A DNA stretch of 34,757 nt from Nitrospirota bacterium (GCA_040758355.1 JBFLWF010000025.1:1-34757), one strand, 5' to 3'; counted from the stretch's first letter, positions 283-18,701 are shown. Notes: generated by a model not told the origin, from the sequence alone. Made by a program: numbers and translations.

Positions 283-1326
283 CTATTTTTTCTTCATCTT
301 GCCGCGGTGTTGCAATTCGGATTTTGGAATAATTTTTTCCTCTTTCTCTTCAACTGAGACTGTTGGCGGCGCAGACGGCAGCGATACCTTAGCAGGAGTC
401 ACTGTATAACCAGCGTCTTTTATAAGACCTCTAAACACATTTTCTGCATCCGCACCATAGCTATTTATAAAGGCAGCCTCTACGAAGCCCATGTTTCCTG
501 CCAGTTTTGGCTCTACCTCGTCAAAGGCTGTCTTGCTTCGCCTTAAGAGGTCAACAAGATCCGGTCTTTTTATCAGATTTGTGCTAAACCTCCGCCCCAA
601 CTCATCGCCCATAACCGTGAATGTCTGATGATAAATCTCTTTTTTAAGAATCTTAGGGTCAGGAATATCAAGGGCGCCGAGTGTTTTGCCTTTGCTGTAA
701 TCCAGTACAAGCAAAGTCCCGCCCTCTGATACCTGAGTCATCAATGCGCCTTCCTTTAACATCTTCTGTGTTTTGTGGTATTTGGCAGAATACTCATCGA
801 CAAACCGCGCTATAAAATTCTCTCTGTCTTTCTGAGAACCCTCGGCAATCAGTGTGATAAATACATCTATTGCCCTTTTGAGAGTCTTTGCCCATCCTTC
901 TTCAAAGTCCTGAATAACCTTAACAAATCGTTTGCCCGTTACATTGCCTATAGTGGCAGCCGCCTTATTGAGATGGGGACCCAGCACGAGGTCCGCTGTC
1001 CTGTCCTGATAGCCAAGCCTGTAACCCTTAACAAAAGCGTCTTTGAGGTCAGCGTGAACCCAGAAGTAATCCAGATTGTTTTCATCTATAAGCGCCTCTA
1101 CAAACCTCTCATCCAATATCTCTTTAGTAGCCTTTTCAGCATCGAATTTCAAATCCCAGTGCCTTTTTCCCCACCATTGACCGGCCCTTTCATAATCAGC
1201 CACAGTTTTAGCCGGCCTGAAAAACTCATCGTCTTTTTTAGTAAGTGAATCAACAGTTACACATCCTCCGAGAAAACAAACTACTAACAAAACGATCACT
1301 ATTGAAACCGCCTTTTTGTTAAACAT
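283..1326 (-). CDS. Hypothetical lipoprotein
   Basis: Likely start MFNKK at 1326 (GGGGCGAGG upstream); hydrophobic stretch then lipobox FLGGC; no recognisable domain. Confidence 0.7.
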   Translation of the reverse strand: MFNKKAVSIVIVLLVVCFLGGCVTVDSLTKKDDEFFRPAKTVADYERAGQWWGKRHWDLKFDAEKATKEILDERFVEALIDENNLDYFWVHADLKDAFVKGYRLGYQDRTADLVLGPHLNKAAATIGNVTGKRFVKVIQDFEEGWAKTLKRAIDVFITLIAEGSQKDRENFIARFVDEYSAKYHKTQKMLKEGALMTQVSEGGTLLVLDYSKGKTLGALDIPDPKILKKEIYHQTFTVMGDELGRRFSTNLIKRPDLVDLLRRSKTAFDEVEPKLAGNMGFVEAAFINSYGADAENVFRGLIKDAGYTVTPAKVSLPSAPPTVSVEEKEEKIIPKSELQHRGKMKKK

Positions 1327-1400
1327 GCCTCGCCCCCTTCTTAAAAGTTTTAAAAAGACTCTATTCCGGCTAATACTCAAGCATCTTTTTAGCCTCTATT

Positions 1401-1429
1401 TTTATAACACAGTGCAATATTGCTGTCAA
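1401..1429 (-). promoter_or_regulatory. Sigma70-type promoter for the lipoprotein gene with palindromic operator
   Basis: TTGACA-17 bp-TATAAA with TGn extension; spacer contains palindrome GCAATATTGC; GTGCAAT (1412-1418) is inverted as ATTGCAC (1436-1442). Confidence 0.65.
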
Positions 1430-1486
1430 GGAAAAATTGCACCTTGAAATTGTATTGGAGAATAAGGTGCTATTAGGATAGAGCTG

Positions 1487-1870
1487 ATGAAAAAAAGGAA
1501 TATAGTAGGAGAAAATATAAGAAAACTGAGATTAAAAGCAGGACTTACTCAGGAAGAACTTGCATTGAAAAGCGGCCTTTCTCAGGGCTATATAAATCAA
1601 CTGGAGAGCGGAAAGAGAAAGTACACGCAAAAATCATTAGAGATGATCGCAGATGCCTTGTCAATCCAGGTGATAGAATTATTCAGAGAAGAAAAAGAAG
1701 CCAGAGTCCCTATGATTAGCGAAAAAGCTGAAAGATATAGGGAGAGATATCCTGATAAAAAAGAGTTTTTAGCCCTGTTGGACGAATTGCCTGAATACAT
1801 TGTGGAGCATTACCTCACCCTTTTAAAGCTGGAAAAGAAATTATTAAGCAAGGGAAAAGGCAAATCTTAG
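1487..1870 (+). CDS. XRE-family HTH transcriptional regulator
   Basis: IRKLRLKAGLTQEELALKSGLSQGYINQLESGKR is a canonical HTH_3 motif. Confidence 0.9.
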   Translation: MKKRNIVGENIRKLRLKAGLTQEELALKSGLSQGYINQLESGKRKYTQKSLEMIADALSIQVIELFREEKEARVPMISEKAERYRERYPDKKEFLALLDELPEYIVEHYLTLLKLEKKLLSKGKGKS

Positions 1871-1891: not shown

Positions 1892-1920
1892 AAAAAACCC
1901 CGCCTTGAAGCGGGGTTTTT
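1892..1920. terminator. Bidirectional intrinsic terminator
   Basis: AAAAAACCCCGC-CTTGAA-GCGGGGTTTTT between convergent genes. Confidence 0.85.
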
Positions 1921-1945: not shown

Positions 1946-3958
1946 CTACGCACAGACTACTGTTTCCTTAAGCCACAATAACCTTGAGCCGTTGATAACA
2001 GATGCGTTGATGGACTCTATCATTTCGTCCACCTTCACATCAAAGCCCTCTTTGCGTGCAAACGGAGCAACCGAAGCCTTTACCTTTACCTTAGCGAGCT
2101 TCTTTGTCTCGCTCTCCTTTGCCTCTTTTATTTCTGCACCCATTGCCTTTGCAATGTCTGCAAAAATCTCCCTGTGGCTCTTTGCTTCGCCAGCAGGCTC
2201 CACTGCCTTGCATACATGTTTTAACCTTCCTAAATAATCCACCATTGTTCCATCAACTTCAAGATATGCTGCTGATGGAAGAACAATATCCGCCTGTTTT
2301 GCAAGCTCTGTGAGATGGGAGTTCTGCACAACGAGAAAATCCACATCCGGCCTCTTGTTTAATGGAACCTCTCCGATTGCATAAAGGAGATTTAATCCTC
2401 CTGAAACCATTTCCTTATAAGGTTTATCTTCAGTGGTGAGACCCATCATCACTACTCCCTTTGCATTGCTTTCCACAGGAACAGATACTGCTATGCCCTT
2501 TAAAAGAGCGATATTAGCAGCAGCCTGATACATTGCTGGTGATGAGAGTATTACAGGATTCTTTGCCTCCGTATAAAGCGCTGCTGCTTTATCCACTGCT
2601 TCTGAAACAGATGCATTTGCAACTGCTGAAGCAAGTTTTTTATCTCCTGAAAGTCCCTTATCAATTAAAACCTTTGTCAGGGACATGAGGGCTGATACCT
2701 CGTTCTCGATGAGATTTACAGTTGCCACGGATGCGATCTTCGGCTCTGATGAATTGATCACAATCAGCTTTGCACCAGCATTAACCCTTCTCCTTATAAC
2801 AGCATCAATGGCTGGCAATACCCTTTTCCACTGGCTCGGATTTAAGTCCACGAGTACAAAGAGGTCTGCTGAATCAAGGTCTGCACTGCCTGAGATTAAT
2901 GTATCCGCATCGCCGTAAAGGCTTGCAGTGGTATCTACATTCTTTGTCTTTACAGCATCGGATGCAAACTTCTTTAATGTAAGTGCATCTTCGTTAAGTA
3001 TTCCTGCTGTTGTTATGAAACCTGCGTTTTGGCCTGCCTTTTTCAGTGCATTGGCAATCGTCTCTATGGCATCCTTCCATGTGGTCTCTTTCAGTTCACC
3101 GTTTACACGTTTCATCGGTGCTGTAACTCTATTGTCAGCCTCGATACAGTCAAAGCCGAATCTTCCGTAGGCACATATATATCTTTCTGGCGAGCCCTCT
3201 ATCGCACCTGCATTTACCTTCATTATCTGTCCATCCTTTGTGCTGACAGTTATGTCGCAGCCATTTCCGCAGAGAAGGCATACGGAATTTACTTTGTCAT
3301 AATCCCATTCCCTGCCCTTTCTCCATCTGTCAGCCTCAAGGAGCGCATTGACAGGGCACACATCAACGCAGCTTCCGCAGAATGTACACCCTGACTCCTG
3401 TAGGGGCTTATCCTCTGCTGTTGCAACCTTCGAACCAACACCTCTTCCCATAAATTCGAGCACATTCGTCCCCTGATCCTTGCAAACCCTTACGCATCTG
3501 CCACAGAGCACGCAGTAGTCAGGGTCGCGTTTGATGAACGGATTTGCCTCATCTATGGAAAAGCCGAATTTCTTTCTTGTGAATGATGATTCCTTTATCT
3601 CAAAATCATAGGCGTAATTCTGGAGATTGCATACGCCTGCCTTTGTGCATGTCATGCAGTCAAGGGGATGCATAGAGAGGATGAGGTCTATTACGAATTT
3701 CCTTACCTCCTGAACCTTCTCTGTCTTTGTGTTGACCACCATGCCCTCTTTCACCCTTGTGGTGCAGGCAATCATGGGCGCCTTCATTCCCTCTATTTCC
3801 ACAAGACAGAGCCTGCATGCACCGATGCCCTTTAAGCCTTTAAGATAACAGAGATTTGGTATATGAATGCCGCCCAGTTCCGCAGCATCGATGAGGTTAG
3901 TGCCCTCAGGGGCCTTTATCTCCTTGCCATCTATCTTAAGATTAACCATGTTTGCCAT
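1946..3958 (-). CDS. NuoG/FdhA-like multi-Fe-S protein (HydA-position subunit) with degenerate molybdopterin-oxidoreductase domain
   Basis: [2Fe-2S] (LC..GACRLCLVE..AC), HxxxCxxCx5C, two CxxCxxCxxxC ferredoxin motifs, CLLCGNGC..C [4Fe-4S], C-terminal ADIVLPSAAYLEVDGT; no Cys/Sec at the Mo-ligand position. Confidence 0.85.
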   Translation of the reverse strand: MANMVNLKIDGKEIKAPEGTNLIDAAELGGIHIPNLCYLKGLKGIGACRLCLVEIEGMKAPMIACTTRVKEGMVVNTKTEKVQEVRKFVIDLILSMHPLDCMTCTKAGVCNLQNYAYDFEIKESSFTRKKFGFSIDEANPFIKRDPDYCVLCGRCVRVCKDQGTNVLEFMGRGVGSKVATAEDKPLQESGCTFCGSCVDVCPVNALLEADRWRKGREWDYDKVNSVCLLCGNGCDITVSTKDGQIMKVNAGAIEGSPERYICAYGRFGFDCIEADNRVTAPMKRVNGELKETTWKDAIETIANALKKAGQNAGFITTAGILNEDALTLKKFASDAVKTKNVDTTASLYGDADTLISGSADLDSADLFVLVDLNPSQWKRVLPAIDAVIRRRVNAGAKLIVINSSEPKIASVATVNLIENEVSALMSLTKVLIDKGLSGDKKLASAVANASVSEAVDKAAALYTEAKNPVILSSPAMYQAAANIALLKGIAVSVPVESNAKGVVMMGLTTEDKPYKEMVSGGLNLLYAIGEVPLNKRPDVDFLVVQNSHLTELAKQADIVLPSAAYLEVDGTMVDYLGRLKHVCKAVEPAGEAKSHREIFADIAKAMGAEIKEAKESETKKLAKVKVKASVAPFARKEGFDVKVDEMIESINASVINGSRLLWLKETVVCA

Positions 3959-3962
3959 AATT

Positions 3963-4052
3963 CCTCCTTACTTAGTTTATGGGTATATGAGCATATGGGT
4001 GAATGAGTTTACTTTTTACTCATTAACTCTTTTACACATTTACTCATTTACT
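3963..4052 (-). repeat. 90-bp intergenic repeat, copy 1 (octamer-periodic imperfect hairpin plus RBS)
   Basis: Matches 11245-11334 at 87/90 positions. Confidence 0.95.
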
Positions 4053-4056
4053 TAAT

Positions 4057-4644
4057 TTATACTCCAACAGGTTCTTTGCTTTTTACTTCAACAATTATAA
4101 TCGCCTCTGTAGGACATACCTTGATGCAATCACCGCATTTGACGCATCTCTTCTGCCTTATCTCAAAGGGCAGATAGCCGCTCTGATATGGCTTTTTTCT
4201 TTCTCCAGTGATTGCATTGTATTTACATACATCCTGACATTCCCCACACATTATGCATTCCTCAGGTATAATCCTGTATTCTATGAATGCCTTGCAGTCT
4301 CTTGAAGGACATCTGCCATTGATATGCTCTTCGTAAACATTTGTGCCCATCCACTCGATGATGAACTTTGCAGTGTCTTTTCCCTTTTTGCAGAGAGAAC
4401 CCTCTGCCATTTCTTCGGCAATCCTCTTAAGTGCGAACAAATCAGCCTCTGCACCATTTCCGTCAACTATCCCCTGAAGCCTTATCCTTGCTTCATAGCT
4501 TCCCATAGCACAGGGGAAACATCTGCCGCACATGGGGCCTGAAAGAAACTCGGTGATATAGTAAAGGGCCTTCTGTACAGGACAACCCTTTTCCTCTGCT
4601 GATTTTCTTATGTCCTCTACTTTTAATTCCTTTATCTCTGTCAT
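4057..4644 (-). CDS. Stand-alone NuoF/HydB C-terminal Fe-S domain protein (195 aa)
   Basis: ATG at 4644 overlaps the upstream stop (ATGA), RBS GAGGTG; motifs CGRCFPC..SLC, GCP..EEH..C..C and two ferredoxin motifs. Confidence 0.85.
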   Translation of the reverse strand: MTEIKELKVEDIRKSAEEKGCPVQKALYYITEFLSGPMCGRCFPCAMGSYEARIRLQGIVDGNGAEADLFALKRIAEEMAEGSLCKKGKDTAKFIIEWMGTNVYEEHINGRCPSRDCKAFIEYRIIPEECIMCGECQDVCKYNAITGERKKPYQSGYLPFEIRQKRCVKCGDCIKVCPTEAIIIVEVKSKEPVGV

Positions 4645-6542
4645 TTCTTCACCTCGGCACCAGGCATTCTCCGGCCCTTTTCTACCTTTACCGCACCAAT
4701 CGGGCATGCAAGGTAGCATGCCTTACACTTCGTGCAATAGTCCTGATCAATGAAAAATGATCTTGGCGTCTCTTTCACTGCATCAAAGGCACATGCCTCT
4801 TTGCATAATCCGCACAGGAAGCATTCGTCATGATCTATCCTGTAAACGCCAAGACCACTGCATACCTTTGCCCTGCAGTATTTATCGTATATATGTTCCT
4901 CATACTCCTCTCTAAAATACTTTATTGTGGATAGTACCGGGTTTGGCGCTGAATTGCCCAGACCGCATAAAGAACCCTGGATGACCTTCCGGCCTATTTC
5001 TTCAAGCCTCTCTATGTCTCCATGCTCTCCCCTACCGGAGGTGATCTTTTCGAGTATCTGAAGCATCTGGTATGTGCCTATCCTGCATGGAGGACACTTT
5101 CCGCATGACTCCGACTGTGTGAAAGAGAGGAAGTACTTTGCCACATCCACCATGCATGTTTCTTCGTCCAGGACAACCATGCCTCCTGACCCCATCATAG
5201 AGCCGACCTTTGTGAGCGAGTCAAAATCAACAGGCAGGTCGAGGTAGCTTGCAGGCAAGCAGCCTCCTGAAGGGCCTCCTGTCTGGACTGCCTTGAACTC
5301 CTTGTCTCCAATGATTCCACCGCCTATATCGAAAATTATCTCCCTTAACGTCGTACCCATGGGAACTTCCACAAGCCCTGTATTCTTGACCTTTCCAGTG
5401 AGTGCAAAGACCTTTGTTCCCGGGGAATTCTCTGTCCCTATGCTCCTGAACCAGTCAGCACCATTCTCTATTATTGGAGGCACGCAGGCATATGTCTCTA
5501 TGTTGTTTAGATTGCTCGGATAGCCGAATACACCCCCCCCTATCTCGGATAGTCTTGGTGGACGGGGCCTCGGGAATCCCCTTTCTCCTTCAATCGATGC
5601 AACAAGGGCAGTGGATTCGCCGCAGACGAATGCTCCGGCGCCTTCCCTCACGTCGAGGAAGAAGCTGAAATTAGTTCCGAGTATGTTTTTGCCTAAAAGG
5701 CCGATTTCCTCTGCCTGTTTTATGGCATGTTTCAGGTTTTTAACAGCTAATGGATATTCGTGTCTGACATAAATAAAGCCGTATTGTGCGTCAATAGCGT
5801 ATGCACATAAAAGCATTCCTTCAAAAAGGCTGTGGGGATCGCCTTCCATTATCGATCTGTCCATAAATGCTCCGGGGTCGCCTTCGTCTCCGTTTGCAAT
5901 AACAAACCTTATCTTCTCTGGAGAGCCTTTTGTATGCTTCCACTTCTTTCCTGCAGGGAATCCTGCACCGCCCCTGCCCCTGAGATTGGCTTTATCAACC
6001 TCGTTTAAGACATCGTCAGGCGTCATGGAAGATAGTGCCTTTTCGAGCGCCTTGTATCCTCCGACAGCGATATAATGATATATATTCGTAGGATCTATTT
6101 TGTCGTTGTTTCTGAGGGCGATTCTCAACTGCTTTTTATAAAATGGCAGATCCAGCATTTCAGGAACAGGTTCGCTAAGGATATTATCCCTGTAGAGTGC
6201 CTGCCTGTAAGGCGTTCCGCCCACAAAGGTATAGCTCATAAGGGATGATGCCTGATCCGGCTTTACCCTCTGATAAAAGACATCTGACGGCTCGGCCTTC
6301 ATAACAGGACCCTTCTGGCACATACCCTGACATCCTGTCTTTACAATTTCTATGTCGACTCCTTTTTTCTTCGCATCTTCCTGAAGCGCATCGATCACCT
6401 TATACGCTCCGGTTGCAGTGCATGCAGTCCCGCAGCAAGCCCTTATCCTCGGCTTGCCAGGCTGAAACATTTCAGAGGAAAGTTTTTCCCTCAGCTTCCT
6501 TAAATCATCTATGCTATTTAATCTCTCCATCCCTAACCCCAT
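4641..6542 (-). CDS. nuoF: HydB/NuoF-like FMN/NAD(P)H-binding subunit, bifurcating-type architecture (alternative start 6530)
   Basis: N-terminal CCGTAC..CQGMC [2Fe-2S], GRGGAGFP, NGDEGDPGAFMDR, GGPSGG, CGKCPPC..LC, C-terminal 2x[4Fe-4S]. Confidence 0.92.
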   Translation of the reverse strand: MGLGMERLNSIDDLRKLREKLSSEMFQPGKPRIRACCGTACTATGAYKVIDALQEDAKKKGVDIEIVKTGCQGMCQKGPVMKAEPSDVFYQRVKPDQASSLMSYTFVGGTPYRQALYRDNILSEPVPEMLDLPFYKKQLRIALRNNDKIDPTNIYHYIAVGGYKALEKALSSMTPDDVLNEVDKANLRGRGGAGFPAGKKWKHTKGSPEKIRFVIANGDEGDPGAFMDRSIMEGDPHSLFEGMLLCAYAIDAQYGFIYVRHEYPLAVKNLKHAIKQAEEIGLLGKNILGTNFSFFLDVREGAGAFVCGESTALVASIEGERGFPRPRPPRLSEIGGGVFGYPSNLNNIETYACVPPIIENGADWFRSIGTENSPGTKVFALTGKVKNTGLVEVPMGTTLREIIFDIGGGIIGDKEFKAVQTGGPSGGCLPASYLDLPVDFDSLTKVGSMMGSGGMVVLDEETCMVDVAKYFLSFTQSESCGKCPPCRIGTYQMLQILEKITSGRGEHGDIERLEEIGRKVIQGSLCGLGNSAPNPVLSTIKYFREEYEEHIYDKYCRAKVCSGLGVYRIDHDECFLCGLCKEACAFDAVKETPRSFFIDQDYCTKCKACYLACPIGAVKVEKGRRMPGAEVKK

Positions 6543-7025
6543 TTATTTCTTAACCTTGTTTATAATCTCATTTACCTTCTTGGGGCCTACATCGCCCACG
6601 ACCTCTTCATTAACTGTCACAACAGGAGCAAGACCGCAGCACCCTACACAACCAACGGTCTCGAGGGTCATGGACATATCTTCTGTTGTCTCCCCTTCCT
6701 TGACGCCGAATTCATCTTCAAGCTTCTCAAGGAGCTTTGATGCGCCCCTGACATGGCATGCTGTGCCCATGCAGACGCAGACAACATTCTTGCCCCTCGG
6801 CTTGAAATAGAAGTGTTTGTAGAATGATGCAGTGCTGTATACATCGGCAAGGGGAATATCAAGCTTCTTTGACAATTCCCTCAGCTTGTCTTCAGGGAGA
6901 TAGTTATGCTCCTTCTGAATCTGCTGAAAGGCATAGATGAGAAGCCCCCTCTTTTTCTGATCTCCTGTAAGAACTTCCCCAATCTCTTTATAGTGCGCAT
7001 CTACATTAAATTCTTCTATCTTCAT
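6543..7025 (-). CDS. nuoE: HydC/NuoE-like [2Fe-2S] subunit
   Basis: VYSTASFY, CMGTACHVRG and CVGCCGLAP motifs. Confidence 0.92.
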   Translation of the reverse strand: MKIEEFNVDAHYKEIGEVLTGDQKKRGLLIYAFQQIQKEHNYLPEDKLRELSKKLDIPLADVYSTASFYKHFYFKPRGKNVVCVCMGTACHVRGASKLLEKLEDEFGVKEGETTEDMSMTLETVGCVGCCGLAPVVTVNEEVVGDVGPKKVNEIINKVKK

Positions 7026-7038
7026 CTAACCTCCAGAC

Positions 7039-9024
7039 TTATAACCCTATATGCGGTTTTGCTGCCTTTTCGAGTTCACGCCTTGCAGCCATATCCATGA
7101 GCACACGCTCTGCACCGAACTTGCCCGGCTCGTATTTCTTTAGTTTCAATGCCTCCCTTGCCTTATCGATATAGTCAAGGGTAAGTGTCAGCATCTTTTC
7201 CGGATCAGGCTCAAAATGCAATGCACCTCTAAATCTCTCAAACCATACCTCTGTCATTATTCTTGTAACTTCCTGGCTTGAACCCACAGGGGATTCTCCA
7301 CCCATTATTACAGGGACGCCTGATGCTGCAAAATAACTGCCGATGGCTATTGCCTTCTCAGACATCCATTCCGGCGCTATACCAACAGCAGGCATTCCGC
7401 CTATTTCATCGGAAAGGCCGCCTTCTTCTGCCATCGCACTCGCAATGGTTAATATCCTTGTATTATCAACACATGCGCCTAAATGCAGTATCGGGGGAAT
7501 TCCTATTGCTTCGCATACTTCCCTCAGGCCCGGACCAGCATGCTCTAATGCCATCTCCGGCGTCAGATAACCTGCAACACCGCAAGCCTGAGAACCGCAG
7601 CCGGTGGTTATGACAAGGACATCATTCTTAATAAGTTCCATTGTAAGGAACTTGTGTGTGCCTGTTGCCGGAACCCTCGGATTGTCGCATCCCACAACCC
7701 CTGCAACTCCACGGATCCTTCCTGCCATGATAGCATCGTTCAGCGGCCTGAATGACGCCCTCCATTTCCCTCCCTGCATATACTCAATGTACTCATGAGA
7801 GAAGCCTGCAATGACAGGATATTTTTCTGTTATATGGCTTCCTTCCTTCTTTCTATTGGCGAAGTTATCGATTGCGATCTTTATTATCTCCTTAGCTATC
7901 TCCCTTGCCTTATGTTCATCAAAGCTGATGTGAGTTGCACCCGGGATCTTTGCCTTTTCGGATGTCGTTATGACCTTTGTGTGGAATTTCTTTGATGTCT
8001 CTACAATTGCAGGCATTATGCACTGGACATCAACAACCATCGCCTCTACAAGCCCTGTCATAATAGCGAGCTCCTGATTGGTGAAGCCTCCGGCAGTAGG
8101 GATTCCACGCCTCATGAGCACCTCATTTGCCGTGCAGCACAATCCTCCGAGGTTTATTCCCTTTGCACCCTTTGACTGGGCATAGGCTATCATCTCGGGA
8201 TCTGAAGCCACATCTACTATTGTCTCGGCAAGCGATGGCTCATGACCGTGTATAACAAGGTTAACCTCGTTCTCTTTGAATATTCCAAGGCTCGCCTCTG
8301 CTTTTATCGGCATCGGTGTGCCAAAGAGGATATCAGTAACCTCTGTGGATATCATGCTGCCGCCCCATCCATTTGAAAGGGCAGTCCGCAAGCCCTGTGT
8401 TAAAAGGGAATCTGGATCTGCATCCATACCTATGGTGGTTCTATCCATCGCCTCGGCAATTTCCCTGTCTATACCTCTTGGAGTAATGCCCCATTTCTTC
8501 CACCTTTCCTGTGTTTTCTTTGGAGCCCTTTTTATGAAATTAACCTCTCCTCTCTGTCTGCCGTAGTCTTCCAGAAGCTTCGTTGCAACATCCCTTGCCA
8601 CATCATTCACAGGCCTTCCTTCGAACTCTATATCAAGGATTCCTGCAATCCTGTAAAGCTTTCTAACATCCTTTATCTGAAAGTCCTTTGTCTCGCCATT
8701 AGCAACAGCCAGCAGTGTGAATACCATGTCTCTTCCATGATCGCCATGACAGGCAGTTCCGGCAGCGATCATCCTCACAAAATTCCTTGCTGCAACTGTG
8801 GGAAGAGTTGCGCCACAAATGCCCCTTGCCTCTTCCTCTGCATTCTTACCAACAAGCCTGCACGGCCCCATGTGGCAAACCCTGCAACAAGCGCCGGATT
8901 CGCCTATCGGGCATGGTTTAAGTTTTTCCGCCCTCTCAAAACATGTGTCTATCTTATGGGACTCGCCCCATTCTATTACCTTCTCTGCTGCTTCATCAGC
9001 ACTTTTCATAATATGCTTATCCAT
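7039..9024 (-). CDS. cooS: Anaerobic Ni,Fe carbon-monoxide dehydrogenase catalytic subunit (AcsA/CooS)
   Basis: CPIG..CCRVCHMGPC (D/B clusters), HGDH, C-cluster ligands HGHEP, CCTANE, DVQC, GCDN, TGCG, GACVDN, catalytic EKA. Confidence 0.97.
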   Translation of the reverse strand: MDKHIMKSADEAAEKVIEWGESHKIDTCFERAEKLKPCPIGESGACCRVCHMGPCRLVGKNAEEEARGICGATLPTVAARNFVRMIAAGTACHGDHGRDMVFTLLAVANGETKDFQIKDVRKLYRIAGILDIEFEGRPVNDVARDVATKLLEDYGRQRGEVNFIKRAPKKTQERWKKWGITPRGIDREIAEAMDRTTIGMDADPDSLLTQGLRTALSNGWGGSMISTEVTDILFGTPMPIKAEASLGIFKENEVNLVIHGHEPSLAETIVDVASDPEMIAYAQSKGAKGINLGGLCCTANEVLMRRGIPTAGGFTNQELAIMTGLVEAMVVDVQCIMPAIVETSKKFHTKVITTSEKAKIPGATHISFDEHKAREIAKEIIKIAIDNFANRKKEGSHITEKYPVIAGFSHEYIEYMQGGKWRASFRPLNDAIMAGRIRGVAGVVGCDNPRVPATGTHKFLTMELIKNDVLVITTGCGSQACGVAGYLTPEMALEHAGPGLREVCEAIGIPPILHLGACVDNTRILTIASAMAEEGGLSDEIGGMPAVGIAPEWMSEKAIAIGSYFAASGVPVIMGGESPVGSSQEVTRIMTEVWFERFRGALHFEPDPEKMLTLTLDYIDKAREALKLKKYEPGKFGAERVLMDMAARRELEKAAKPHIGL

Positions 9025-9040
9025 TTTAAACCTCCGCCTT

Positions 9041-11239
9041 TTATATCATTGGTTCCATTTCCAATGCAGGATGTCCGACACTGGAAAGGTGTTCCAGAAG
9101 CTTCTCTGAATCTTCGCAGATAGTTTCATCTGCTATCTTGTCGAGCAGGTCAGGGACACCGGCCTCTTCCGCCCTCTTCTTGAAGTCCTCTGCTATTCTC
9201 TCCTTCAGTCCTTTCGGCATCCAGACAATCCTCTTTATGCCGCCGTCGCCGGAGAGGAACTTCTTGCTTGTTATGAAGTTAACGCCAATCCCCATAAATC
9301 CCGGTGTCTGTGCACCGCCGCCGACAGTGCCTGCAAGGGTGGAGAACTTCATGCCTATAGGGGTCATCATGGTTGCACCCCTGTTTACAATCATGACGCC
9401 GTTGGCCTCAGGGATAATCGCGACGATACACTCAAAGCATCCGCATGAGGTCATTGGGTTTTCCATTATTGTGTAAAGGTTCAGTGTTTCCACTGCACCT
9501 CCTGATGCCTTCTTCAGATACTCATCAACACCTGTGTATCTCCCGTATCTTGTATCAAGTATCTCGCCTTTTTGTATCGGCTGGTTTCCGCCTGTAGGGT
9601 CTATCTCGTATGCTGCCTTTCCGTCAAGCCAGTTGTATGCACCGCAAAGACCGAGCCTTTCCGGGGTGATCACACACACATGGGCAGGAGCAAAAGACTG
9701 GCAGAGGAGGCATGAATAGAATGTATCAACTGCATCGTCCGTAAGGCTTCCGAGCCTGTGGTCTCTTTCTTTGTATGCAGCCCTTGCCTCTTCCATCGTC
9801 AGTTTTACATCTTCATCGGTCGTATAAAGCGTAACCTGTACCTTGTCAACTATAGACTTGAAACGGTTGTGGGTCATTGTATTGAGAATGACCCCTATAT
9901 GTTCAAGGGTTATTCCGTCTTTCTGTGCAGCATTGTTTATCCTTATCCAGTTAATGTCACGCTGTCCCATGTGCCAGAGCCCCTGTGCCTCGTTTATATT
10001 GTGGTGTATCTTTCTTTCTATGACAGACTCGAAGTCCTTCTGCATTTTTCTTCCTGCGACTTCTATCAGGATACCGAGGGGCATCTGTCCGCCCTTTTCA
10101 TAACGCTCCTGCCAGTTGTCACCCACAATAATAACCTTGTTGTCCTCTATCTCCTCAAGCTCTCTCATCCTGACCCACTCAAATGCAGGAGTCCTCTGAC
10201 CTCCAAATTCAATAAACATATCCTCTTTTCTTATCCTCTCACCCTCAAATGCAGGGCCGTATGCGACTGGTATCGGAGGCTTTTCAACAATGATCTTAAG
10301 ACCCCTTACCTCTATTGCCTTCTGGACAATCTTTGAATGGTCAAACTCTTTATCCACTTCTTCGTATGTACATACACCTGTGGGATGTATGACAGGGACA
10401 TCCGTATCGCATACTGCCGGGAAGCCCATGTTTATTGCGCCTGCGCCTGTTGACCATTTGATGTCATCGAGAGGGCCGAGTGCAAGGGCGAATGCAAAGA
10501 CCCTGTCTTTCTGGTACTTTAAATGATCTTTAAAATCACCGGGCTTTTTGCCGCCAAATATCAAAGATGCCCTGATTGCCCAGTCAAGTGCATAAAGGGT
10601 ATGCTCTGTATCAGGGCCAAGCGGAACTATCCTCGTATCCCATCCGAGTTCTATTCCTTTCCTCTGGAGCTGCTTTGTCACGCTATCACCATTGGACTGG
10701 CCTGAAAGGAATGTAAGGATATTCTTTTCCTGCAACTCCCTGCAGATATTCACAGCAATGTCATCAGTTGGAGCAGCCCCGATTATTGCTGCAAATCCAG
10801 GCATTGTGCCGTCAACGAGCTGTATGCCAAGATTTCTCTGTATCGTGTCTGTTATAAAACCGTTATAGACATAGCCTGTCTCGGGATCTTTATATGGTTC
10901 GAGACCATATATATATTTGATTGCGAATATAATCTCCTCGGCAAAAAGCGTTGCCATTCCTGAGTCGAGGGCCTCTCCAAGATACGGCTTCCAGATATTC
11001 TCTTCTGGTTCGTCATGGAGAAGCTCCTTTGCAAAACCGAGGGCGACCTTCATATCGCCGACTGTCTTGACAGGGAACCCTGTCATTGCATATATCATAG
11101 GGAGATAGTAAGCGGTATCCGGAAACTCGAAGGCAAAGTCCTTTCCCTTTTCGGCTATTGCCTTTTCCACCATTTCTTCGGCCTGAGCCACGAGTTTATG
11201 TGCACCTCTTATAGCTGCCGAGGCTATTAACTTTGACAT
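9041..11239 (-). CDS. acsB: Acetyl-CoA synthase, bacterial type (732 aa)
   Basis: FPDTAYYLP, GPAFEGERIRK, A-cluster ligands CLLCQSFAP.HVC..ERLGLCG and TSCGCFE. Confidence 0.97.
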   Translation of the reverse strand: MSKLIASAAIRGAHKLVAQAEEMVEKAIAEKGKDFAFEFPDTAYYLPMIYAMTGFPVKTVGDMKVALGFAKELLHDEPEENIWKPYLGEALDSGMATLFAEEIIFAIKYIYGLEPYKDPETGYVYNGFITDTIQRNLGIQLVDGTMPGFAAIIGAAPTDDIAVNICRELQEKNILTFLSGQSNGDSVTKQLQRKGIELGWDTRIVPLGPDTEHTLYALDWAIRASLIFGGKKPGDFKDHLKYQKDRVFAFALALGPLDDIKWSTGAGAINMGFPAVCDTDVPVIHPTGVCTYEEVDKEFDHSKIVQKAIEVRGLKIIVEKPPIPVAYGPAFEGERIRKEDMFIEFGGQRTPAFEWVRMRELEEIEDNKVIIVGDNWQERYEKGGQMPLGILIEVAGRKMQKDFESVIERKIHHNINEAQGLWHMGQRDINWIRINNAAQKDGITLEHIGVILNTMTHNRFKSIVDKVQVTLYTTDEDVKLTMEEARAAYKERDHRLGSLTDDAVDTFYSCLLCQSFAPAHVCVITPERLGLCGAYNWLDGKAAYEIDPTGGNQPIQKGEILDTRYGRYTGVDEYLKKASGGAVETLNLYTIMENPMTSCGCFECIVAIIPEANGVMIVNRGATMMTPIGMKFSTLAGTVGGGAQTPGFMGIGVNFITSKKFLSGDGGIKRIVWMPKGLKERIAEDFKKRAEEAGVPDLLDKIADETICEDSEKLLEHLSSVGHPALEMEPMI

Positions 11240-11244
11240 CCCAA

Positions 11245-11334
11245 CCTCCTTATTTAGTTTATGTGTATATGAGCATATGGGTGAATGAGCTTACTTTTTA
11301 CTCATTAACTCTTTTACACATTTACTCATTTACT
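11245..11334 (-). repeat. 90-bp intergenic repeat, copy 2
   Basis: Matches 3963-4052 at 87/90 positions; includes the acsB RBS. Confidence 0.95.
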
Positions 11335-11418: not shown

Positions 11419-12759
11419 CTATGCCTTTGACCTCAGGAATGCGGGAAGTCCATTTGCCTCCCTTGGCCCGACCGTTACCTTCCATCCCGGAAGTTTGTCC
11501 TCTATGGCGCCGCTCAGTATCGCAACATAGCCGGGGATAATCAATTCCCTGTGCTTTATCTCGTTCTCTATGCCGCTCTCCTGAATGAACTGGGCAATCT
11601 TAGACGCAGTGAATTTACCCGCTGCCCATGCTGTAAGGACAGACAATCCTTCGCAGTCCATAACAGCAAGTCTGCATGGAACCTTGCTGTTTTCGATCTC
11701 ACCCGAAACGATAAAGTATGTCAATGAGAAGTTTGTTGTAATGGTAAGAGGAGATTCAGGTGTGGGCTCGCCGATCTTGTATATCTTCTGCTCCACCTGC
11801 ATCGGAACCTGCGGGTCTGTATATATGTTCTGCCTCAGTGTAAATAGTGCGAGGTTCTTCCATCTTTCGATGCTGCTTAAGACTACAATCGATGCATATT
11901 TTGTCACTCCGAGTGTTGCAACAAGACTCTCGAACATCTTATCATCCCTCTGTGCAAAGGTTATCACGGGGTAGCCCAGTGCCTTGAAGTTCTTCTTGAT
12001 TGCAGCCCTTCTTATAAAGGTATTGGCCTCAAGGATTTCCTTTGCGGTCCTCGCACCTGAATCAATGACCATATCCTCGACGCCGAGGCCCTTTATCTTC
12101 TCTGTCAATGCAGAAAGTGCATCAAGCCCCTTCGCTGTAACGCCAAGGGATGCCTTATATGTCTTTGCAATGTTCGCCATTGTCTCTGCATTGGATTCAT
12201 CGGCTCCGTAAAGGAGCGGCTTTTTGTCGGCGATATTTTTCAGAGCAGCCTCTGCTGCAGCAGGATTATTGGTTGCGATAATCAAAGGCACGGCAGGCGC
12301 CTTTGATGCAATGGCCTTCACCACGCCTTCGAACCTTCCCGCATCATTTGATGCATTATTTACGAAAATGGCGTCAATCCTGAGTTTCTGGCCTACCCTG
12401 TCTATTTCTGAATTTAATACGCCATCAACAATCTTATTAATCTCGTCATCTGACATGGAGTCTTTTATCTCAACTGCAAAGGCGCATGGATTCACAAACT
12501 TCTTTTCATGCCTGAAGAGGACAGTCTCTTCTCCCATCTTCACTGCCTTATCGCCGGCACCGAGGGTTATCGGCCTTATTGGAGGAGCCGAGGCCTCGCC
12601 GAGAATTCTCTTTGCCTCTTCGGATACATCAGGACATGCATCGAGTGATGCCTGCCTCTGTGCCAGTTTCATGGCAAAGGCAAGACATGTGGGATGTCCG
12701 CACTTTTTACAGTTGGTCTTTGGAAGCAATTTAAATATTTCAACGCCTGTTAAAGCCAT
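11419..12759 (-). CDS. acsC: Corrinoid Fe-S protein, large subunit
   Basis: LPKTNCKKCGHPTCLAFAM, ETVLFRHEK, RQNIYTDPQ, TNFSLTYF, SVLTAWAAGKF. Confidence 0.96.
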   Translation of the reverse strand: MALTGVEIFKLLPKTNCKKCGHPTCLAFAMKLAQRQASLDACPDVSEEAKRILGEASAPPIRPITLGAGDKAVKMGEETVLFRHEKKFVNPCAFAVEIKDSMSDDEINKIVDGVLNSEIDRVGQKLRIDAIFVNNASNDAGRFEGVVKAIASKAPAVPLIIATNNPAAAEAALKNIADKKPLLYGADESNAETMANIAKTYKASLGVTAKGLDALSALTEKIKGLGVEDMVIDSGARTAKEILEANTFIRRAAIKKNFKALGYPVITFAQRDDKMFESLVATLGVTKYASIVVLSSIERWKNLALFTLRQNIYTDPQVPMQVEQKIYKIGEPTPESPLTITTNFSLTYFIVSGEIENSKVPCRLAVMDCEGLSVLTAWAAGKFTASKIAQFIQESGIENEIKHRELIIPGYVAILSGAIEDKLPGWKVTVGPREANGLPAFLRSKA

Positions 12760-12771
12760 ATTTAACCTCCC

Positions 12772-13710
12772 TTACATTAACTCATCAATAAATTTTTCGA
12801 CTGCTTTAACTGCTTCAGGATGTCTCATTATCAGAAGCTCCGCACCGGACATCAATAATGAGGCTGCGGTAGTGGCCTCCCATGTTATTCCCCTCTCTTG
12901 CAGGGATCCCCACAGAGGAAGCTCTGCATCTGATGCCTGTGTCTCCTTTATCTTCCACACATACATGCCCACATCTGCAAGCATGGGCGGCTGCATGGTC
13001 GCATCATTCTGCGTCAGTGCCGCAAGCCTTATCCTTTCCATAACCGAATATGTATATTCAAGACCGTATCCGAGCGCCGAACACATGGGGTCTGTTATCA
13101 GCTTCTCCTTGTCAAAACCCATCTGTGTTATCAAAATATTGAGCTGTTTTGAAAGGTTTATATCAAGCTCTGACATGGCTATAAGTCTATGGTTGTTTGC
13201 CATTGCAGCAGCGGCAATGGTCTTGTAATTGCCTTCCTGCGCCTTTCCTATTATGCAGTTTTTATCCTTTGCAGCTTCAGAGACTGCAACAAGCACGGAA
13301 GAGTCTTTCTCTACATGATTGCTTCCGAGTATTATCAGCGGGACATTTATTGCGGCAAGCACATCCTTTACTGTCTTTGCTGCATCCTCAGGAGAGCGGT
13401 TTTCCCTGTCAGGGTGTGTGCTTAAAAGCCTTAATGCTATTGCCTTTGCATTCAGTGTGTCCTGACAGTATTTTGCCCATGTAACAGGGTCTCCTGAAAC
13501 GCTTTCGTAGACCTTTTTCACTGTCTCGGGCCAGTCATCCGGAACTATGTCCTGAACCTCATAGGCTATTACAGGCCTGTGCGGAACACTTCCTTCAAAG
13601 GCATGAAAGGAGAGGACATTCTCTCCACCGAAAACAGCAGTCTTGTCGGTGCCTATGGTAACCTCAAAAACCTTGCCTGAAAAAGTCTCCTTTGGTATAG
13701 CAAAAGCCAT
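12772..13710 (-). CDS. acsD: Corrinoid Fe-S protein, small subunit
   Basis: FGGEN..FHAFEG, DINLSKQLN, ALGYGLEYTYSVMERIRLAAL, LLIMRHP. Confidence 0.95.
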   Translation of the reverse strand: MAFAIPKETFSGKVFEVTIGTDKTAVFGGENVLSFHAFEGSVPHRPVIAYEVQDIVPDDWPETVKKVYESVSGDPVTWAKYCQDTLNAKAIALRLLSTHPDRENRSPEDAAKTVKDVLAAINVPLIILGSNHVEKDSSVLVAVSEAAKDKNCIIGKAQEGNYKTIAAAAMANNHRLIAMSELDINLSKQLNILITQMGFDKEKLITDPMCSALGYGLEYTYSVMERIRLAALTQNDATMQPPMLADVGMYVWKIKETQASDAELPLWGSLQERGITWEATTAASLLMSGAELLIMRHPEAVKAVEKFIDELM

Positions 13711-13720
13711 ATTAAACCTC

Positions 13721-14578
13721 CTACATTTCTAAATACGAATGTGCATAAAGGGTTTTGTTCATTATTACATCAAGGGTCTTTTGTATAACCATCATTTTTT
13801 CGGCATCTTCAATCTTCTTGCCAGCAAGAATATCATCGACCAATTGCTTTTCATGCATAGCCTCTGCCATCTCATGGGCATCGGCAATAGCAGCATCCAG
13901 TCCTGCATTCATGAGCATAATAAAGTAATACTTATTTAATATCGGTCTGATATGTTTTGGACATCCATTGGAAATATTGCTTAGTCCAACAACTGTCTTC
14001 ATAGGCGGCTCATTCATTTCCCGGAACATCTTTATGGCATCGATAACCTTCATAGCATGGTCCTGCGATGTTGCTATCTGAAGTACAAGTGGGTCAAGGA
14101 AAATATCCTCAAGCGGCACGCCGTATTCCATAGCCCTTGCCATTATTTCCGCTGCTATTGCAGCCCTTTCCTCTGCATCGGCAGGCAGGCCGCCCTTACC
14201 GACGGTCAGGCCGATTATCTGCGAATTGTATTTTGCTGCAAGTTCAAGCATGGGAAATCTTTCAGGGTCATTTGATGTGGAGTTGATCAAAGGCCTTCCC
14301 CATTCATTATTATGAATCTTAAGACCAGCCTCTATTGCCTTATAGTTAGTGGTGTCCAGACATATCGGCAGAGGAACAACTTCCTGAATTGTTGTAACCA
14401 TCCACTGCATCAGCTCCTCTCCGCCGTCTTCAGCCGGACCTATGTTGGCATCAATCATGCCCGAACCCTCTTTCCACTGCCGCGTCGCAATCTCCTGTAT
14501 AGGGCCTTTGTCCCTCTTCATCATAGCCTCTCTAACCCTCTTGGCTATAATGCTTAATTTTTCGCCGATTATCAGCAT
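13721..14578 (-). CDS. acsE: Methyltetrahydrofolate:corrinoid Fe-S protein methyltransferase
   Basis: Pterin-binding barrel motifs MLIIGE, IDANIG, LDTTN, LINS, DPLVL, GLSNISNG; operon context. Confidence 0.93.
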   Translation of the reverse strand: MLIIGEKLSIIAKRVREAMMKRDKGPIQEIATRQWKEGSGMIDANIGPAEDGGEELMQWMVTTIQEVVPLPICLDTTNYKAIEAGLKIHNNEWGRPLINSTSNDPERFPMLELAAKYNSQIIGLTVGKGGLPADAEERAAIAAEIMARAMEYGVPLEDIFLDPLVLQIATSQDHAMKVIDAIKMFREMNEPPMKTVVGLSNISNGCPKHIRPILNKYYFIMLMNAGLDAAIADAHEMAEAMHEKQLVDDILAGKKIEDAEKMMVIQKTLDVIMNKTLYAHSYLEM

Positions 14579-14729: not shown

Positions 14730-15497
14730 CTACGGTATCCCCAAAGACTGGAGTACACCAAATACAGTCTGCACAGATACCGCATCCTCCGGAAGCTCGA
14801 ATACAGGCTTGCCTTCTAAATCAAACCTGAATATCATCTCATCCTGCGGTATAAGGCCTGCCACATTAATGCCAAATCCCTCTGCCATCTTCTTTAGTTC
14901 TTCGCCTTCCTGGCCAATAACCCTGTTGATAATAAGGACACGCCTGTCAACATCGAGCTTTAACTCATCAACGAGCTCGTTTATCCTTTTGGCTGTCAGA
15001 ATGCCCTTAACAGTGGGGTCGCTCACGATTATTAATAAGTCAACTTTATGGGTTGTCCTTCTGCTTAAATGCTCCATTCCTGCTTCATTGTCTATAACAA
15101 TATAAGGATACTTATCAGAAAGCAGGTCTGTATATTTCCTTATAATATTATTGGCTGCACAATAACATCCCGGGCCTTCAGGCCTTCCCATCACCATGAG
15201 GTCAAAACCCTTTGCCTCTATAATGGACTGCTGAACCTGATAATCAAACAACTGCTCCATGGACATGCCGCCCGGCCTGTCTCCTCCGCCTCTCACTGCC
15301 TGAAGGGATTCTTCCCTGAGTTTTCCTATGGTTGCATGGATTTTAACGCCAAGGGCTTCATTCAGGCATGCATTGCTGTCTGCATCAACTGCAAGTACAG
15401 GCCCGCTCCTCTTGCTTAATAAAAATTTTATTGTCAGTCCTGCGATGGAAGTCTTTCCTGTTCCACCCTTTCCTGCAAAGGCTATCGTAAATCCCAT
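14730..15497 (-). CDS. cooC: CODH/ACS nickel-insertion ATPase (CooC/AcsF)
   Basis: GKGGTGKT, VDADSN, GPGCYC, DNEAGMEHLSR. Confidence 0.95.
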   Translation of the reverse strand: MGFTIAFAGKGGTGKTSIAGLTIKFLLSKRSGPVLAVDADSNACLNEALGVKIHATIGKLREESLQAVRGGGDRPGGMSMEQLFDYQVQQSIIEAKGFDLMVMGRPEGPGCYCAANNIIRKYTDLLSDKYPYIVIDNEAGMEHLSRRTTHKVDLLIIVSDPTVKGILTAKRINELVDELKLDVDRRVLIINRVIGQEGEELKKMAEGFGINVAGLIPQDEMIFRFDLEGKPVFELPEDAVSVQTVFGVLQSLGIP

Positions 15498-18694: not shown

Positions 18695-18701
18695 CGACTG
18701 C

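What the first reader, a model, noticed from the sequence alone, without database searches (positions are those of the whole stretch)
1946..11239. CODH/ACS operon wired directly to a hydrogenase-less HydABC-like module: candidate electron-bifurcating CO dehydrogenase complex
Seen: acsB-cooS is followed by a 13-nt gap to nuoE-like, which abuts nuoF-like, which overlaps an extra Fe-S gene; after a 98-nt gap comes the nuoG-like gene, ending at one terminator. The NuoF-like protein has the full cofactor set of bifurcating HydB: N-terminal [2Fe-2S], AFM and GGPSG motifs, the C..H..C..C site and terminal 2x[4Fe-4S]. No H-cluster, NiFe or Mo-ligand catalytic subunit is present. Established: HydBC-type (Bfu) modules couple NAD(P)H and ferredoxin to a third redox partner. 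Inference: here the third partner is CODH itself, giving the carbonyl branch a dedicated electron supply (or sink, in the acetate-oxidising direction).
Basis: partly seen in the sequence, partly recalled or inferred. Interest (0 to 1): 0.82.

Follow-up and report, generated by a model that had tools for sequence, protein, structure and literature searches.

The report
CO dehydrogenase with NADPH/ferredoxin bifurcating module
Four genes that travel with the CO dehydrogenase gene of subsurface Nitrospirota bacteria encode an electron-splitting flavin module, probably using NADPH plus ferredoxin and carrying an extra flavin-less subunit, which suggests an untested, cheaper way to power the CO2-to-CO step of an ancient carbon-fixation pathway.

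Summary
On the minus strand, cooC-acsE-acsD-acsC-acsB-cooS runs into bfuC-bfuB-X-bfuA and one terminator. BfuB has every bifurcating-type ligand, BfuA has five Fe-S sites and no Mo ligand, and X is a flavin-less copy of BfuB's C-terminal third.

The module follows cooS, not the ACS genes:
- 155 of 159 Thermodesulfovibrionia genomes with X have cooS; 26 of 30 without cooS lack X.
- In another class it forms a stand-alone bfuC-B-X-A-cooS operon.
- One Brocadiia genome swapped its own cooS for cooS plus module and kept its native acsB.

BfuB carries Ser310/Arg330, like the NADP-only T. kivui HydB, so NADP(H) is the likelier nucleotide. Many relatives add a CBS pair. Against a strict link: at least 11 relatives run cooS-acsB without the module, and 13 of 75 informative loci have no cooS or acs gene near it. 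Nothing is shown biochemically.

A CO-using Bfu enzyme was predicted in 2022 (Firmicutes, Type 2, never purified). This is a different architecture: five-cluster BfuA, no CooF, extra subunit X. This scan has reported the same system before on other DNA. Verdict: new variant of a predicted kind.

The parts
14730..15497 (-). cooC/acsF-type Ni-insertion ATPase
   Evidence: Pfam CbiA/ParA family; name from family knowledge and position before acsE
13721..14578 (-). acsE, methyl-THF:corrinoid protein methyltransferase
   Evidence: NF005719 237 bits, below its cut-off of 259; Pterin_bind
12772..13710 (-). acsD, corrinoid Fe-S protein small subunit
   Evidence: NF003376 above cut-off
11419..12759 (-). 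acsC, corrinoid Fe-S protein large subunit
   Evidence: NF003195 above cut-off
9041..11239 (-). acsB, acetyl-CoA synthase, 732 aa
   Evidence: NF040764 and NF007078 above cut-off
7039..9024 (-). cooS/acsA, Ni-CO dehydrogenase, 661 aa; the only cooS found in the genome; D-, B- and C-cluster ligands intact
   Evidence: TIGR01702 above cut-off; single copy; ligands invariant in 36 sequences
6543..7025 (-). bfuC (NuoE/HydC-like), [2Fe-2S] C1 ligands C85, C90, C126, C130
   Evidence: PF01257; sequence
4641..6542 (-). bfuB (NuoF/HydB-like), FMN plus sites B1-B5; NADP-type residues Ser310 and Arg330; lacks the C-terminal CBS pair of its four same-genus relatives
4057..4644 (-). X, 195 aa: flavin-less copy of the C-terminal third of BfuB with B1-, B2-, B3- and B4-type ligand sets
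   Evidence: naturally fused to BfuB in 9 proteins
3959..4056 (-). 98-nt spacer holding an octamer-repeat palindrome; a 90-nt copy 97% alike lies at 11245-11334
1946..3958 (-). bfuA (NuoG/HydA-like), 670 aa, five Fe-S ligand sets, no H-cluster, Mo ligand deleted
1893..1920 (.). bidirectional intrinsic-terminator-like hairpin

Best explanation
BfuC, BfuB, X and BfuA form a soluble Bfu-family complex whose third redox partner is the CooS of the Wood-Ljungdahl pathway. The likely net reaction is reversible: 2 CO2 + NADPH + Fd(2-) + 3 H+ = 2 CO + NADP+ + Fd(ox) + 2 H2O, with CO passed on to ACS.

Shown here: gene order, cofactor ligands, loss of the catalytic site in BfuA, co-occurrence and co-transfer with cooS, and the NADP-type residues.

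From known Bfu enzymes: FMN with C1/B2/B5 couples the nucleotide to ferredoxin at B3/B4, and BfuA is the wire to the third partner.

Inferred: (1) CooS is that partner. (2) X docks on BfuA and takes the place of the missing CooF, offering a 2x[4Fe-4S] domain to the CODH D-cluster, or acts as a second ferredoxin port. (3) The nucleotide is NADP(H), giving a pair near -440 mV rather than -390 mV. (4) The main use is CO2 fixation, sparing a quarter to a half of the reduced ferredoxin, with the reverse flow available for CO or acetate oxidation. (5) The CBS pair found in over half of the relatives gates it by adenine nucleotides.
For: Co-occurrence in 201 genomes of the class: X and cooS together 155, X alone 4, cooS alone 16, neither 26.

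Synteny: of 75 informative X loci, 50 have cooS directly before bfuC and 9 more have it in the same locus. In family f26 of another class, 13 of 14 fetched loci read bfuC-B-X-A-cooS and the 14th is cut by a contig end inside bfuB. There acsB lies on another contig in 5 of 5 genomes tested, and the module-linked cooS is the only one in 4 of 5. Other orders keep a cooS in or beside the module: L159, L161, L167, L170, L136.

Transfer: in G208 (record titled Candidatus Brocadiia), cooS is 77% identical to the window's against at most 51% in 40 relatives, and X is found in G208 alone of 41. Fourteen of 16 fetched loci of its relatives read cooS-acsB with nothing between. Trees put G208's cooS among Thermodesulfovibrionia and its acsB among its own kin.

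Ligands: B1-B4 ligands are kept in 96 of 96 BfuB sequences and B5 in 93 (3 gapped). All 20 BfuA ligands are kept in 105 of 105, and the 16 X ligands in 114-115 of 115.

NADP: Ser310/Arg330 align with Ser320/Arg340 of T. kivui HydB. Arg340 contacts the bound NADP+ (PMC10021017, Fig. 4 legend), and that enzyme reduces NADP+ but not NAD+ (PMC8578170). The NAD-using A. woodii and A. mobile proteins, and the genome's three other NuoF paralogs, have Glu and Phe there.

X belongs with the module: BfuB-X fusions exist. A model of X with BfuA 1-275 and two CooS 1-238 gave weak support, 0.60 against a best control of 0.00, and the score depends on BfuA. That mark was reached by 116 of 157 solved and 2 of 215 mismatched pairs, but at 0.60 or under by only 18 of the 157 and by both mismatches. 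Runs agreed in at least 95% of contacts, partner pLDDT was at least 76, and the pass may come from likeness to solved HydA-HydB contacts.

The FDH and hydrogenase catalytic genes examined in the genome each sit with their own small or diaphorase subunits.
Against: All evidence is genomic; no activity or co-purification exists.

Eleven fetched loci show cooS-acsB followed by other genes in genomes where X was not found, so the module is dispensable. Thirteen of 75 informative X loci have no cooS or acs gene within about 10 kb; 7 of these lie beside nfnAB, and in 8 more nfnAB shares the locus with cooS and the module. In G011 and G054 the module follows acsB while cooS lies elsewhere, beside a molybdopterin enzyme.

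Kin are not independent: two genera make up 19 of the 30 genomes without cooS. The cross-phylum transfer rests on one genome. The middle of the window's cooS was swapped recently without the module, so any interface tolerates about 17% change.

A pair at -440 mV sits 80 mV above the standard CO2/CO couple, which caps pCO near pCO2/500. The NADP call rests on two residues and one NADP-specific reference structure.
Confidence: 0.55

Rival explanations
1. The module is a free-standing ferredoxin/NADP(H) hub that is co-expressed with cooS but meets CODH only through soluble ferredoxin. X is a second ferredoxin port, so electrons from two ferredoxin pools are balanced with NADPH for the methyl branch, alongside NfnAB.
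For: nfnAB is a frequent neighbour and follows cooS in several module-less genomes. The module is detached from cooS in 13 of 75 loci. CODH/ACS of C. autoethanogenum takes electrons from plain ferredoxin at the D-cluster (bioRxiv 10.1101/2024.08.05.606187, passages). X ends in a ferredoxin-like domain.
Against: The module stays with cooS when cooS leaves the acs genes and came with cooS into G208. A general hub should not be lost with cooS in 26 of 30 genomes. The genome already has NfnAB and Rnf.
Confidence: 0.25
2. The module is bound to CooS but does not bifurcate: it is a plain CO:NADP+ oxidoreductase, suited to CO or acetate oxidation.
For: CO (-520 mV standard) can reduce NADP+ directly (Table 1 of PMC9304861). 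The genome has an acetate-CoA ligase and DsrA, so the oxidative direction is possible.
Against: B2-B5 ligands, which non-bifurcating homologs lack according to PMC9304861, are kept throughout. Wor-Bfu bifurcates even with a -560 mV substrate.
Confidence: 0.12
3. The true catalytic partner is encoded elsewhere (a formate dehydrogenase, a group 3 hydrogenase or an NfnB/GltD-like flavoprotein), and the link to cooS reflects only shared regulation of the pathway.
For: Type 3 Fdh-Bfu has a five-cluster BfuA with a separate FDH subunit (PMC9304861). In L029, L052, L063 and L072 the module lies just before another bfuC-bfuB-fdhA-like set.
Against: In this genome the Sec-FDH has its own BfuBC, the second FdhF and the group 3 hydrogenase have their own flavin subunits, and NfnB has NfnA. 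G208 received cooS and the module without such a partner in the block.
Confidence: 0.08

Closest known systems
Codh-Bfu / CodhABCSF, predicted only (Schut et al. 2022, PMC9304861, abstract and parts 1-6 of 9 read, supplement searched; Feng et al. 2025, PMC12318220, passages read)
   Same: BfuABC core encoded with a Ni-CODH, CO proposed as third substrate, never purified.
   Different: The published form is 4 sequences, Firmicutes only, Type 2 (BfuA lacks A3 and A5), with CooF as wire; no link to ACS appears in the text read ('acetyl-CoA synthase' 0 occurrences). Here BfuA has five cluster sites, no cooF lies in the operon, an extra BfuB-derived subunit X is present, BfuB has NADP-type residues and often a CBS pair, and the CODH is the ACS-associated one of Nitrospirota.
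NiFe-Bfu (HydABCSL) of Acetomicrobium mobile, PDB 7t2r
   Same: Best solved match of BfuB (E 1e-222); five-cluster BfuA without a catalytic site, fed by extra subunits (Type 3).
   Different: Uses H2 through NiFe subunits S and L and NAD; no X-like subunit.
HydABC of Thermoanaerobacter kivui, PDB 8a6t
   Same: NADP-specific bifurcating BfuBC core; shares the Ser and Arg positions.
   Different: Its HydA carries an H-cluster; BfuA here does not.
CODH/ACS of Clostridium autoethanogenum with bound ferredoxin (PDB 9g03; bioRxiv 10.1101/2024.08.05.606187, passages read)
   Same: ACS-associated CODH with a D-cluster entry for a 2x[4Fe-4S] partner.
   Different: Fed by free ferredoxin; no flavin module is described in the passages read.

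Membership tests
BfuABC family (Schut 2022) | BfuB with FMN domain, SLBB, and cluster sites B1-B5 including the B2 His | tested here: met
BfuABC family (Schut 2022) | BfuC with the [2Fe-2S] C1 site | tested here: met
   PF01257 and four Cys
BfuABC family (Schut 2022) | BfuA homolog with at least A1 and A2 | tested here: met
   five ligand sets in 105 of 105 sequences
BfuABC family (Schut 2022) | Strictly coupled reduction of NAD(P)+ and ferredoxin | not testable with these tools
   needs purified enzyme
Codh-Bfu as published (Type 2) | BfuA lacks clusters A3 and A5 | tested here: not met
   all five sites present (definition)
Codh-Bfu as published (Type 2) | CooF subunit encoded with CooS | tested here: not met
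   no cooF in the operon; PF13247 matches lie only on other contigs
Codh-Bfu as published (Type 2) | CODH gene clustered with bfuABC | tested here: met
Codh-Bfu as published (Type 2) | BfuB in clade 49 | tested here: inconclusive
   best PDB match is a clade-49 enzyme, but the published reference set was not available for a tree
Type 3 Bfu | Five-cluster BfuA without catalytic site, plus additional subunits | tested here: met
Type 3 Bfu | Electrons enter through cluster A3 | not testable with these tools
   no contacts were returned by the complex model
FeFe-Bfu (HydABC) | H-cluster domain | tested here: not met
   PF02906 absent from the genome
Type 1 Fdh-Bfu | Mo/W ligand Cys/Sec-His and pterin-binding domain in BfuA | tested here: not met
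Nfn-Bfu / Stn | GltD-like FAD domain in BfuA | tested here: not met
   no such Pfam domain in BfuA
Complex I / Nuo-Bfu | Membrane and quinone subunits in the same operon | tested here: not met
   a separate short-NuoF locus lies on contig C58

The most novel reading that the evidence does not exclude
Most Thermodesulfovibrionia, and at least one family of another Nitrospirota class, fix CO2 with a CODH/ACS that is physically plugged into a four-subunit confurcating complex. A BfuA dimer carries a flavin-bearing BfuB on one side and the flavin-less mimic X on the other, X hands electrons to the CODH D-cluster, NADPH and ferredoxin jointly drive CO2 reduction, and a CBS pair gates the flow by energy charge. 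Tandem BfuB copies with Glu/Phe or Ser/Arg let some species switch between NADH and NADPH.
Probability: 0.25. Interest if true: 0.82.

Novelty: new variant of a known kind. Interest (0 to 1): 0.6.

Why it matters
CO2 reduction to CO in the bacterial Wood-Ljungdahl pathway is treated as a pure ferredoxin reaction. A confurcating CODH would cut the need for reduced ferredoxin by a half if NADPH comes straight from a hydrogenase, or by a quarter if it comes through NfnAB (inference). That would change energy budgets for a class common in aquifers (PMC10203281, PMC11033732, passages).

It would also give the first real example of the predicted Codh-Bfu, in a new architecture, and a natural flavin-less BfuB fragment for studying the disputed B2 site. 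The Ser/Arg versus Glu/Phe pair is a testable rule for nucleotide choice in Bfu enzymes. A protein 83% identical to X is named from Dissulfurispira thermophila (P0003), recalled as a cultured autotroph, so native purification looks feasible.

Tried and rejected
Complex model: with BfuA replaced by an unrelated protein the score for X fell to 0.00, so the job says nothing for or against an X-CooS contact. CooS-BfuA was not scored.

Transcription: one metatranscriptome held 0.06 of the words. Its 21 laid contigs are short and none spans the operon, so co-transcription is untested. The promoter scan found fewer sites than shuffles (17 against 21).

Fusions: the search for longer forms of X gave only BfuB-X fusions, no CooS fusion. 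It scored 8000 candidates, so absence is weak evidence.

Reach beyond Nitrospirota: a 50%-cluster search gave 30 proteins at E up to 1e-30. Of 10 looked up, one cluster is named from Ammonifex. A metagenome scan for its context gave one short locus with an X-like gene before a bfuA-like gene and no cooS in view. A search from distant X sequences gave no taxon names outside Nitrospirota.

Literature: 8 searches listed no paper describing this module in Nitrospirota. Passages of PMC10203281, PMC11033732, PMC12827605, PMC8965080 and bioRxiv 10.64898/2026.07.10.736077 did not describe it. PMC13240472 mentions in general terms that some clade E CODHs lie near NADH:ubiquinone oxidoreductase genes. 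Inoue et al. 2019 was not read. The supplement of PMC9304861 gave only 8,449 characters of text; its tree figures could not be seen, so these BfuB proteins may sit there in an unassigned clade. No paper on the NuoF Glu that excludes NADP was found; that role is recalled.

The careful cooS tree did not finish, so the quick tree was used; the other trees are FastTree. I dropped the idea that the 150-aa BfuB extension is MvhD: it is a CBS pair.
Full report
Observation. The window is contig C25 of genome G000; named relatives are Thermodesulfovibrionia of the phylum Nitrospirota. On the minus strand the genes run cooC, acsE, acsD, acsC, acsB, cooS, bfuC, bfuB, X, bfuA. The gaps from acsB on are 16, 13, 0, -4 and 98 nt, and a strong two-way hairpin follows at 1893-1920. 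The extra gene X starts at 4644 and has 195 residues. CooS keeps its D-, B- and C-cluster ligands and is the only copy found in a genome 99% complete.

Anatomy of the module. BfuB's best solved matches are all bifurcating B subunits, led by A. mobile NiFe-HydB. Mapped on that protein, the B2 ligands named in PMC9304861 are C463, T501, H550, C556 and C561; Thr at the second place is the common variant. In 96 distinct BfuB sequences (at least 600 aa and 60% identity) the B1-B4 ligands are kept, as are AFM, F305 and GGPSG, whose use as bifurcation markers is recalled from Losey et al. 2020. The B5 ligands are kept in 93, with 3 gapped. BfuA has five Fe-S ligand sets, invariant in 105 sequences. 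Against the genome's own FdhF, the Mo-binding Cys-His is deleted and the last domain is missing. There is no [FeFe] hydrogenase in the genome. X is 31% identical to BfuB 459-620, and its model (pLDDT 83) matches B subunits of Bfu enzymes best. Its 16 ligands are kept in 114-115 of 115 sequences. Nine database proteins fuse X behind BfuB.

Nucleotide. The window's BfuB reads Ser310 and Arg330 where NAD-using HydB proteins of A. woodii and A. mobile read Glu and Phe; T. kivui HydB reads Ser320 and Arg340 (organisms of 8a6t and 7q4v). T. kivui HydABC reduces NADP+ and not NAD+ (PMC8578170, passages), and Arg340 contacts the bound NADP+ (PMC10021017, passages). Across the 96 sequences, 88 have Ser or Ala with Arg and 8 have Glu with Phe or Tyr. 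In four loci a Glu/Phe copy stands in tandem before a Ser/Arg copy, and a tree places such copies inside the module's clade rather than with the FDH-linked BfuB. The genome's three other NuoF paralogs have Glu/Phe. NADP(H) use is therefore a well-founded inference, not a result.

What the module follows. In 201 genomes of the class, X was found in 159, acsB in 190 and cooS in 171. X and cooS occur together in 155, X alone in 4, cooS alone in 16 and neither in 26. Genera g30 and g9 keep acsB (14 of 14 and 4 of 5) but have no cooS match and only 1 of 19 has X; these two genera are 19 of the 30 cooS-less genomes, so the count is not independent. For the 125 genomes whose coordinates were listed in both outputs (each listing stops at 150 rows), X lies within 13 kb of acsB in 98, far away on the same contig in 1 and on another contig in 26. 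Among 90 distinct X loci, picked as best matches to X, 15 end too early. Of the other 75, cooS is directly before bfuC in 50 and elsewhere in the locus in 9; acsB is directly before bfuC in 2; 1 has other acs genes; 7 have nfnAB without cooS; and 6 have neither.

Natural experiments. In family f26 of another class, X is in 27 of 36 genomes. Thirteen of 14 fetched loci read bfuC-bfuB-X-bfuA-cooS with no acs gene in the stretch, and the 14th is cut by a contig end. In 5 genomes tested, acsB is on another contig, and in 4 the module-linked cooS is the only one. In family f14, cooS-C-B-X-A stands apart from the acs genes (L159, L161), and second copies keep a cooS inside or beside the module (L167, L170, L136). 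In G208, a Brocadiia genome, cooS (77% identical) and the four genes sit at the place where 14 of 16 fetched loci of relatives have a native cooS directly before acsB. X is absent from the 40 relatives searched. Its cooS nests among Thermodesulfovibrionia while its acsB stays with its kin. The unit that moved was thus cooS plus module, without ACS. This is one genome, and a chimeric assembly is not excluded.

Results against. Eleven loci show cooS-acsB followed by unrelated genes or nfnAB in genomes where X was not found. Three more of the 16 cooS-only genomes (G007, G139, G181) are cut by contig ends there. The module is detached in 13 of 75 loci. In G011 and G054 it follows acsB while cooS sits beside a molybdopterin enzyme. 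The middle of the window's cooS is 90-92% identical in DNA to another genus against 71-80% to its own, while the flanks show the reverse, so cooS alleles can be swapped under the module.

Structure model. Two CooS 1-238, BfuA 1-275 and X were folded together with X scored. The result was weak support: 0.60 against a best control of 0.00, a mark reached by 116 of 157 solved and 2 of 215 mismatched pairs, but at 0.60 or under by only 18 of the 157 and by both mismatches. Runs agreed in at least 95% of contacts and partner pLDDT was at least 76. The score depends on BfuA and may reflect likeness to solved HydA-HydB contacts.

Energetics. With the potentials in Table 1 of PMC9304861, NADPH plus ferredoxin averages -440 mV and NADH plus ferredoxin -390 mV, against -520 mV for CO2/CO. 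The equilibrium pCO2/pCO is about 500 and 25,000. With the ACS step pulling (overall couple near -240 mV, recalled), both are downhill overall, but only the NADPH pair keeps CO within a few hundredfold of CO2. This fits the Ser/Arg residues and the frequent nfnAB neighbours. The genome has Fhs, FolD, MetF, Rnf, NfnAB, a group 3b-like hydrogenase, DsrA and an acetate-CoA ligase, so both directions are open.

Known and new. Schut et al. 2022 predicted Codh-Bfu from 4 Firmicutes sequences as a Type 2 enzyme, and Feng et al. 2025 state that it has a CooF wire and has not been purified. The system here meets the sequence definition of the Bfu family and of Type 3, and fails two features of the published Codh-Bfu. 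Eight literature searches found no description of it in Nitrospirota; subscription journals are mostly outside that library. Earlier notes of this scan describe the same or parallel operons in other genomes. My NADP reading and the Brocadiia lead were written down before I saw those notes.

Verdict. A real, widely conserved, cooS-bound Bfu module with a distinct architecture. A bifurcating CODH complex is the best reading (0.55), NADP(H) the likely nucleotide, and no step is shown by experiment. New variant of a predicted kind; interest 0.6.

Noticed in passing
window 3963-4052 and 11245-11334: Two 90-nt copies, 97% alike, of an octamer-repeat palindrome lie in the X-bfuA and acsC-acsB spacers. 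The same kind of element gives 46 strand hits across the genome. One relative has a 23S rRNA intervening-sequence-type gene in the acsC-acsB gap, and two others have a Fur gene there.
   Followed up: partly
L014:6490-8844 and relatives: 54 of 95 module BfuB proteins end in a CBS pair; in L023, L027, L082 and L112 it is a separate gene. The window's BfuB lacks it although its four same-genus relatives have it.
   Followed up: partly
window about 7500-8700 and 4700-5100: The operon is a mosaic: the middle of cooS is closest to another genus, and the 3' end of bfuB departs from same-genus relatives.
   Followed up: partly
genera g30 and g9; L141-L144: acsE-D-C-B are present but no cooS was found in 14 of 14 and 5 of 5 genomes: an acetyl-CoA synthase apparently without a Ni-CODH.
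   Followed up: partly
L151:3223-11420 (G000 contig C6): A second Bfu-like set: a response regulator, a response-regulator-fused NuoE, a 135-aa gene, a Glu/Phe-type BfuB and an 818-aa NuoG-like gene, followed by a PAS/GAF protein, with no obvious catalytic partner in the stretch.
   Followed up: no
L155:4318-8566 and L156:7319-11523: In G011 and G054 a divergent 690-aa cooS lies directly before a molybdopterin oxidoreductase gene, while the module sits behind acsB.
   Followed up: partly
L021, L023, L024, L066, L036, L102, L163: Two or three bfuB genes in one module; in four loci one copy has NAD-type and one NADP-type residues.
   Followed up: partly
window 17777-20516: DNA polymerase I is in two ORFs 7 nt apart: the 5'-3' exonuclease and the polymerase part.
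   Followed up: no
window 283-1870: A 365-aa ORF with no Pfam match and an XRE regulator lie behind the operon, where two same-genus relatives have nfnAB-hisG. In this genome nfnAB-hisG is on contig C52.
   Followed up: partly
P0276 (database protein): A 173-aa stand-alone X-like protein is named from Ammonifex species; its gene context could not be seen.
   Followed up: partly
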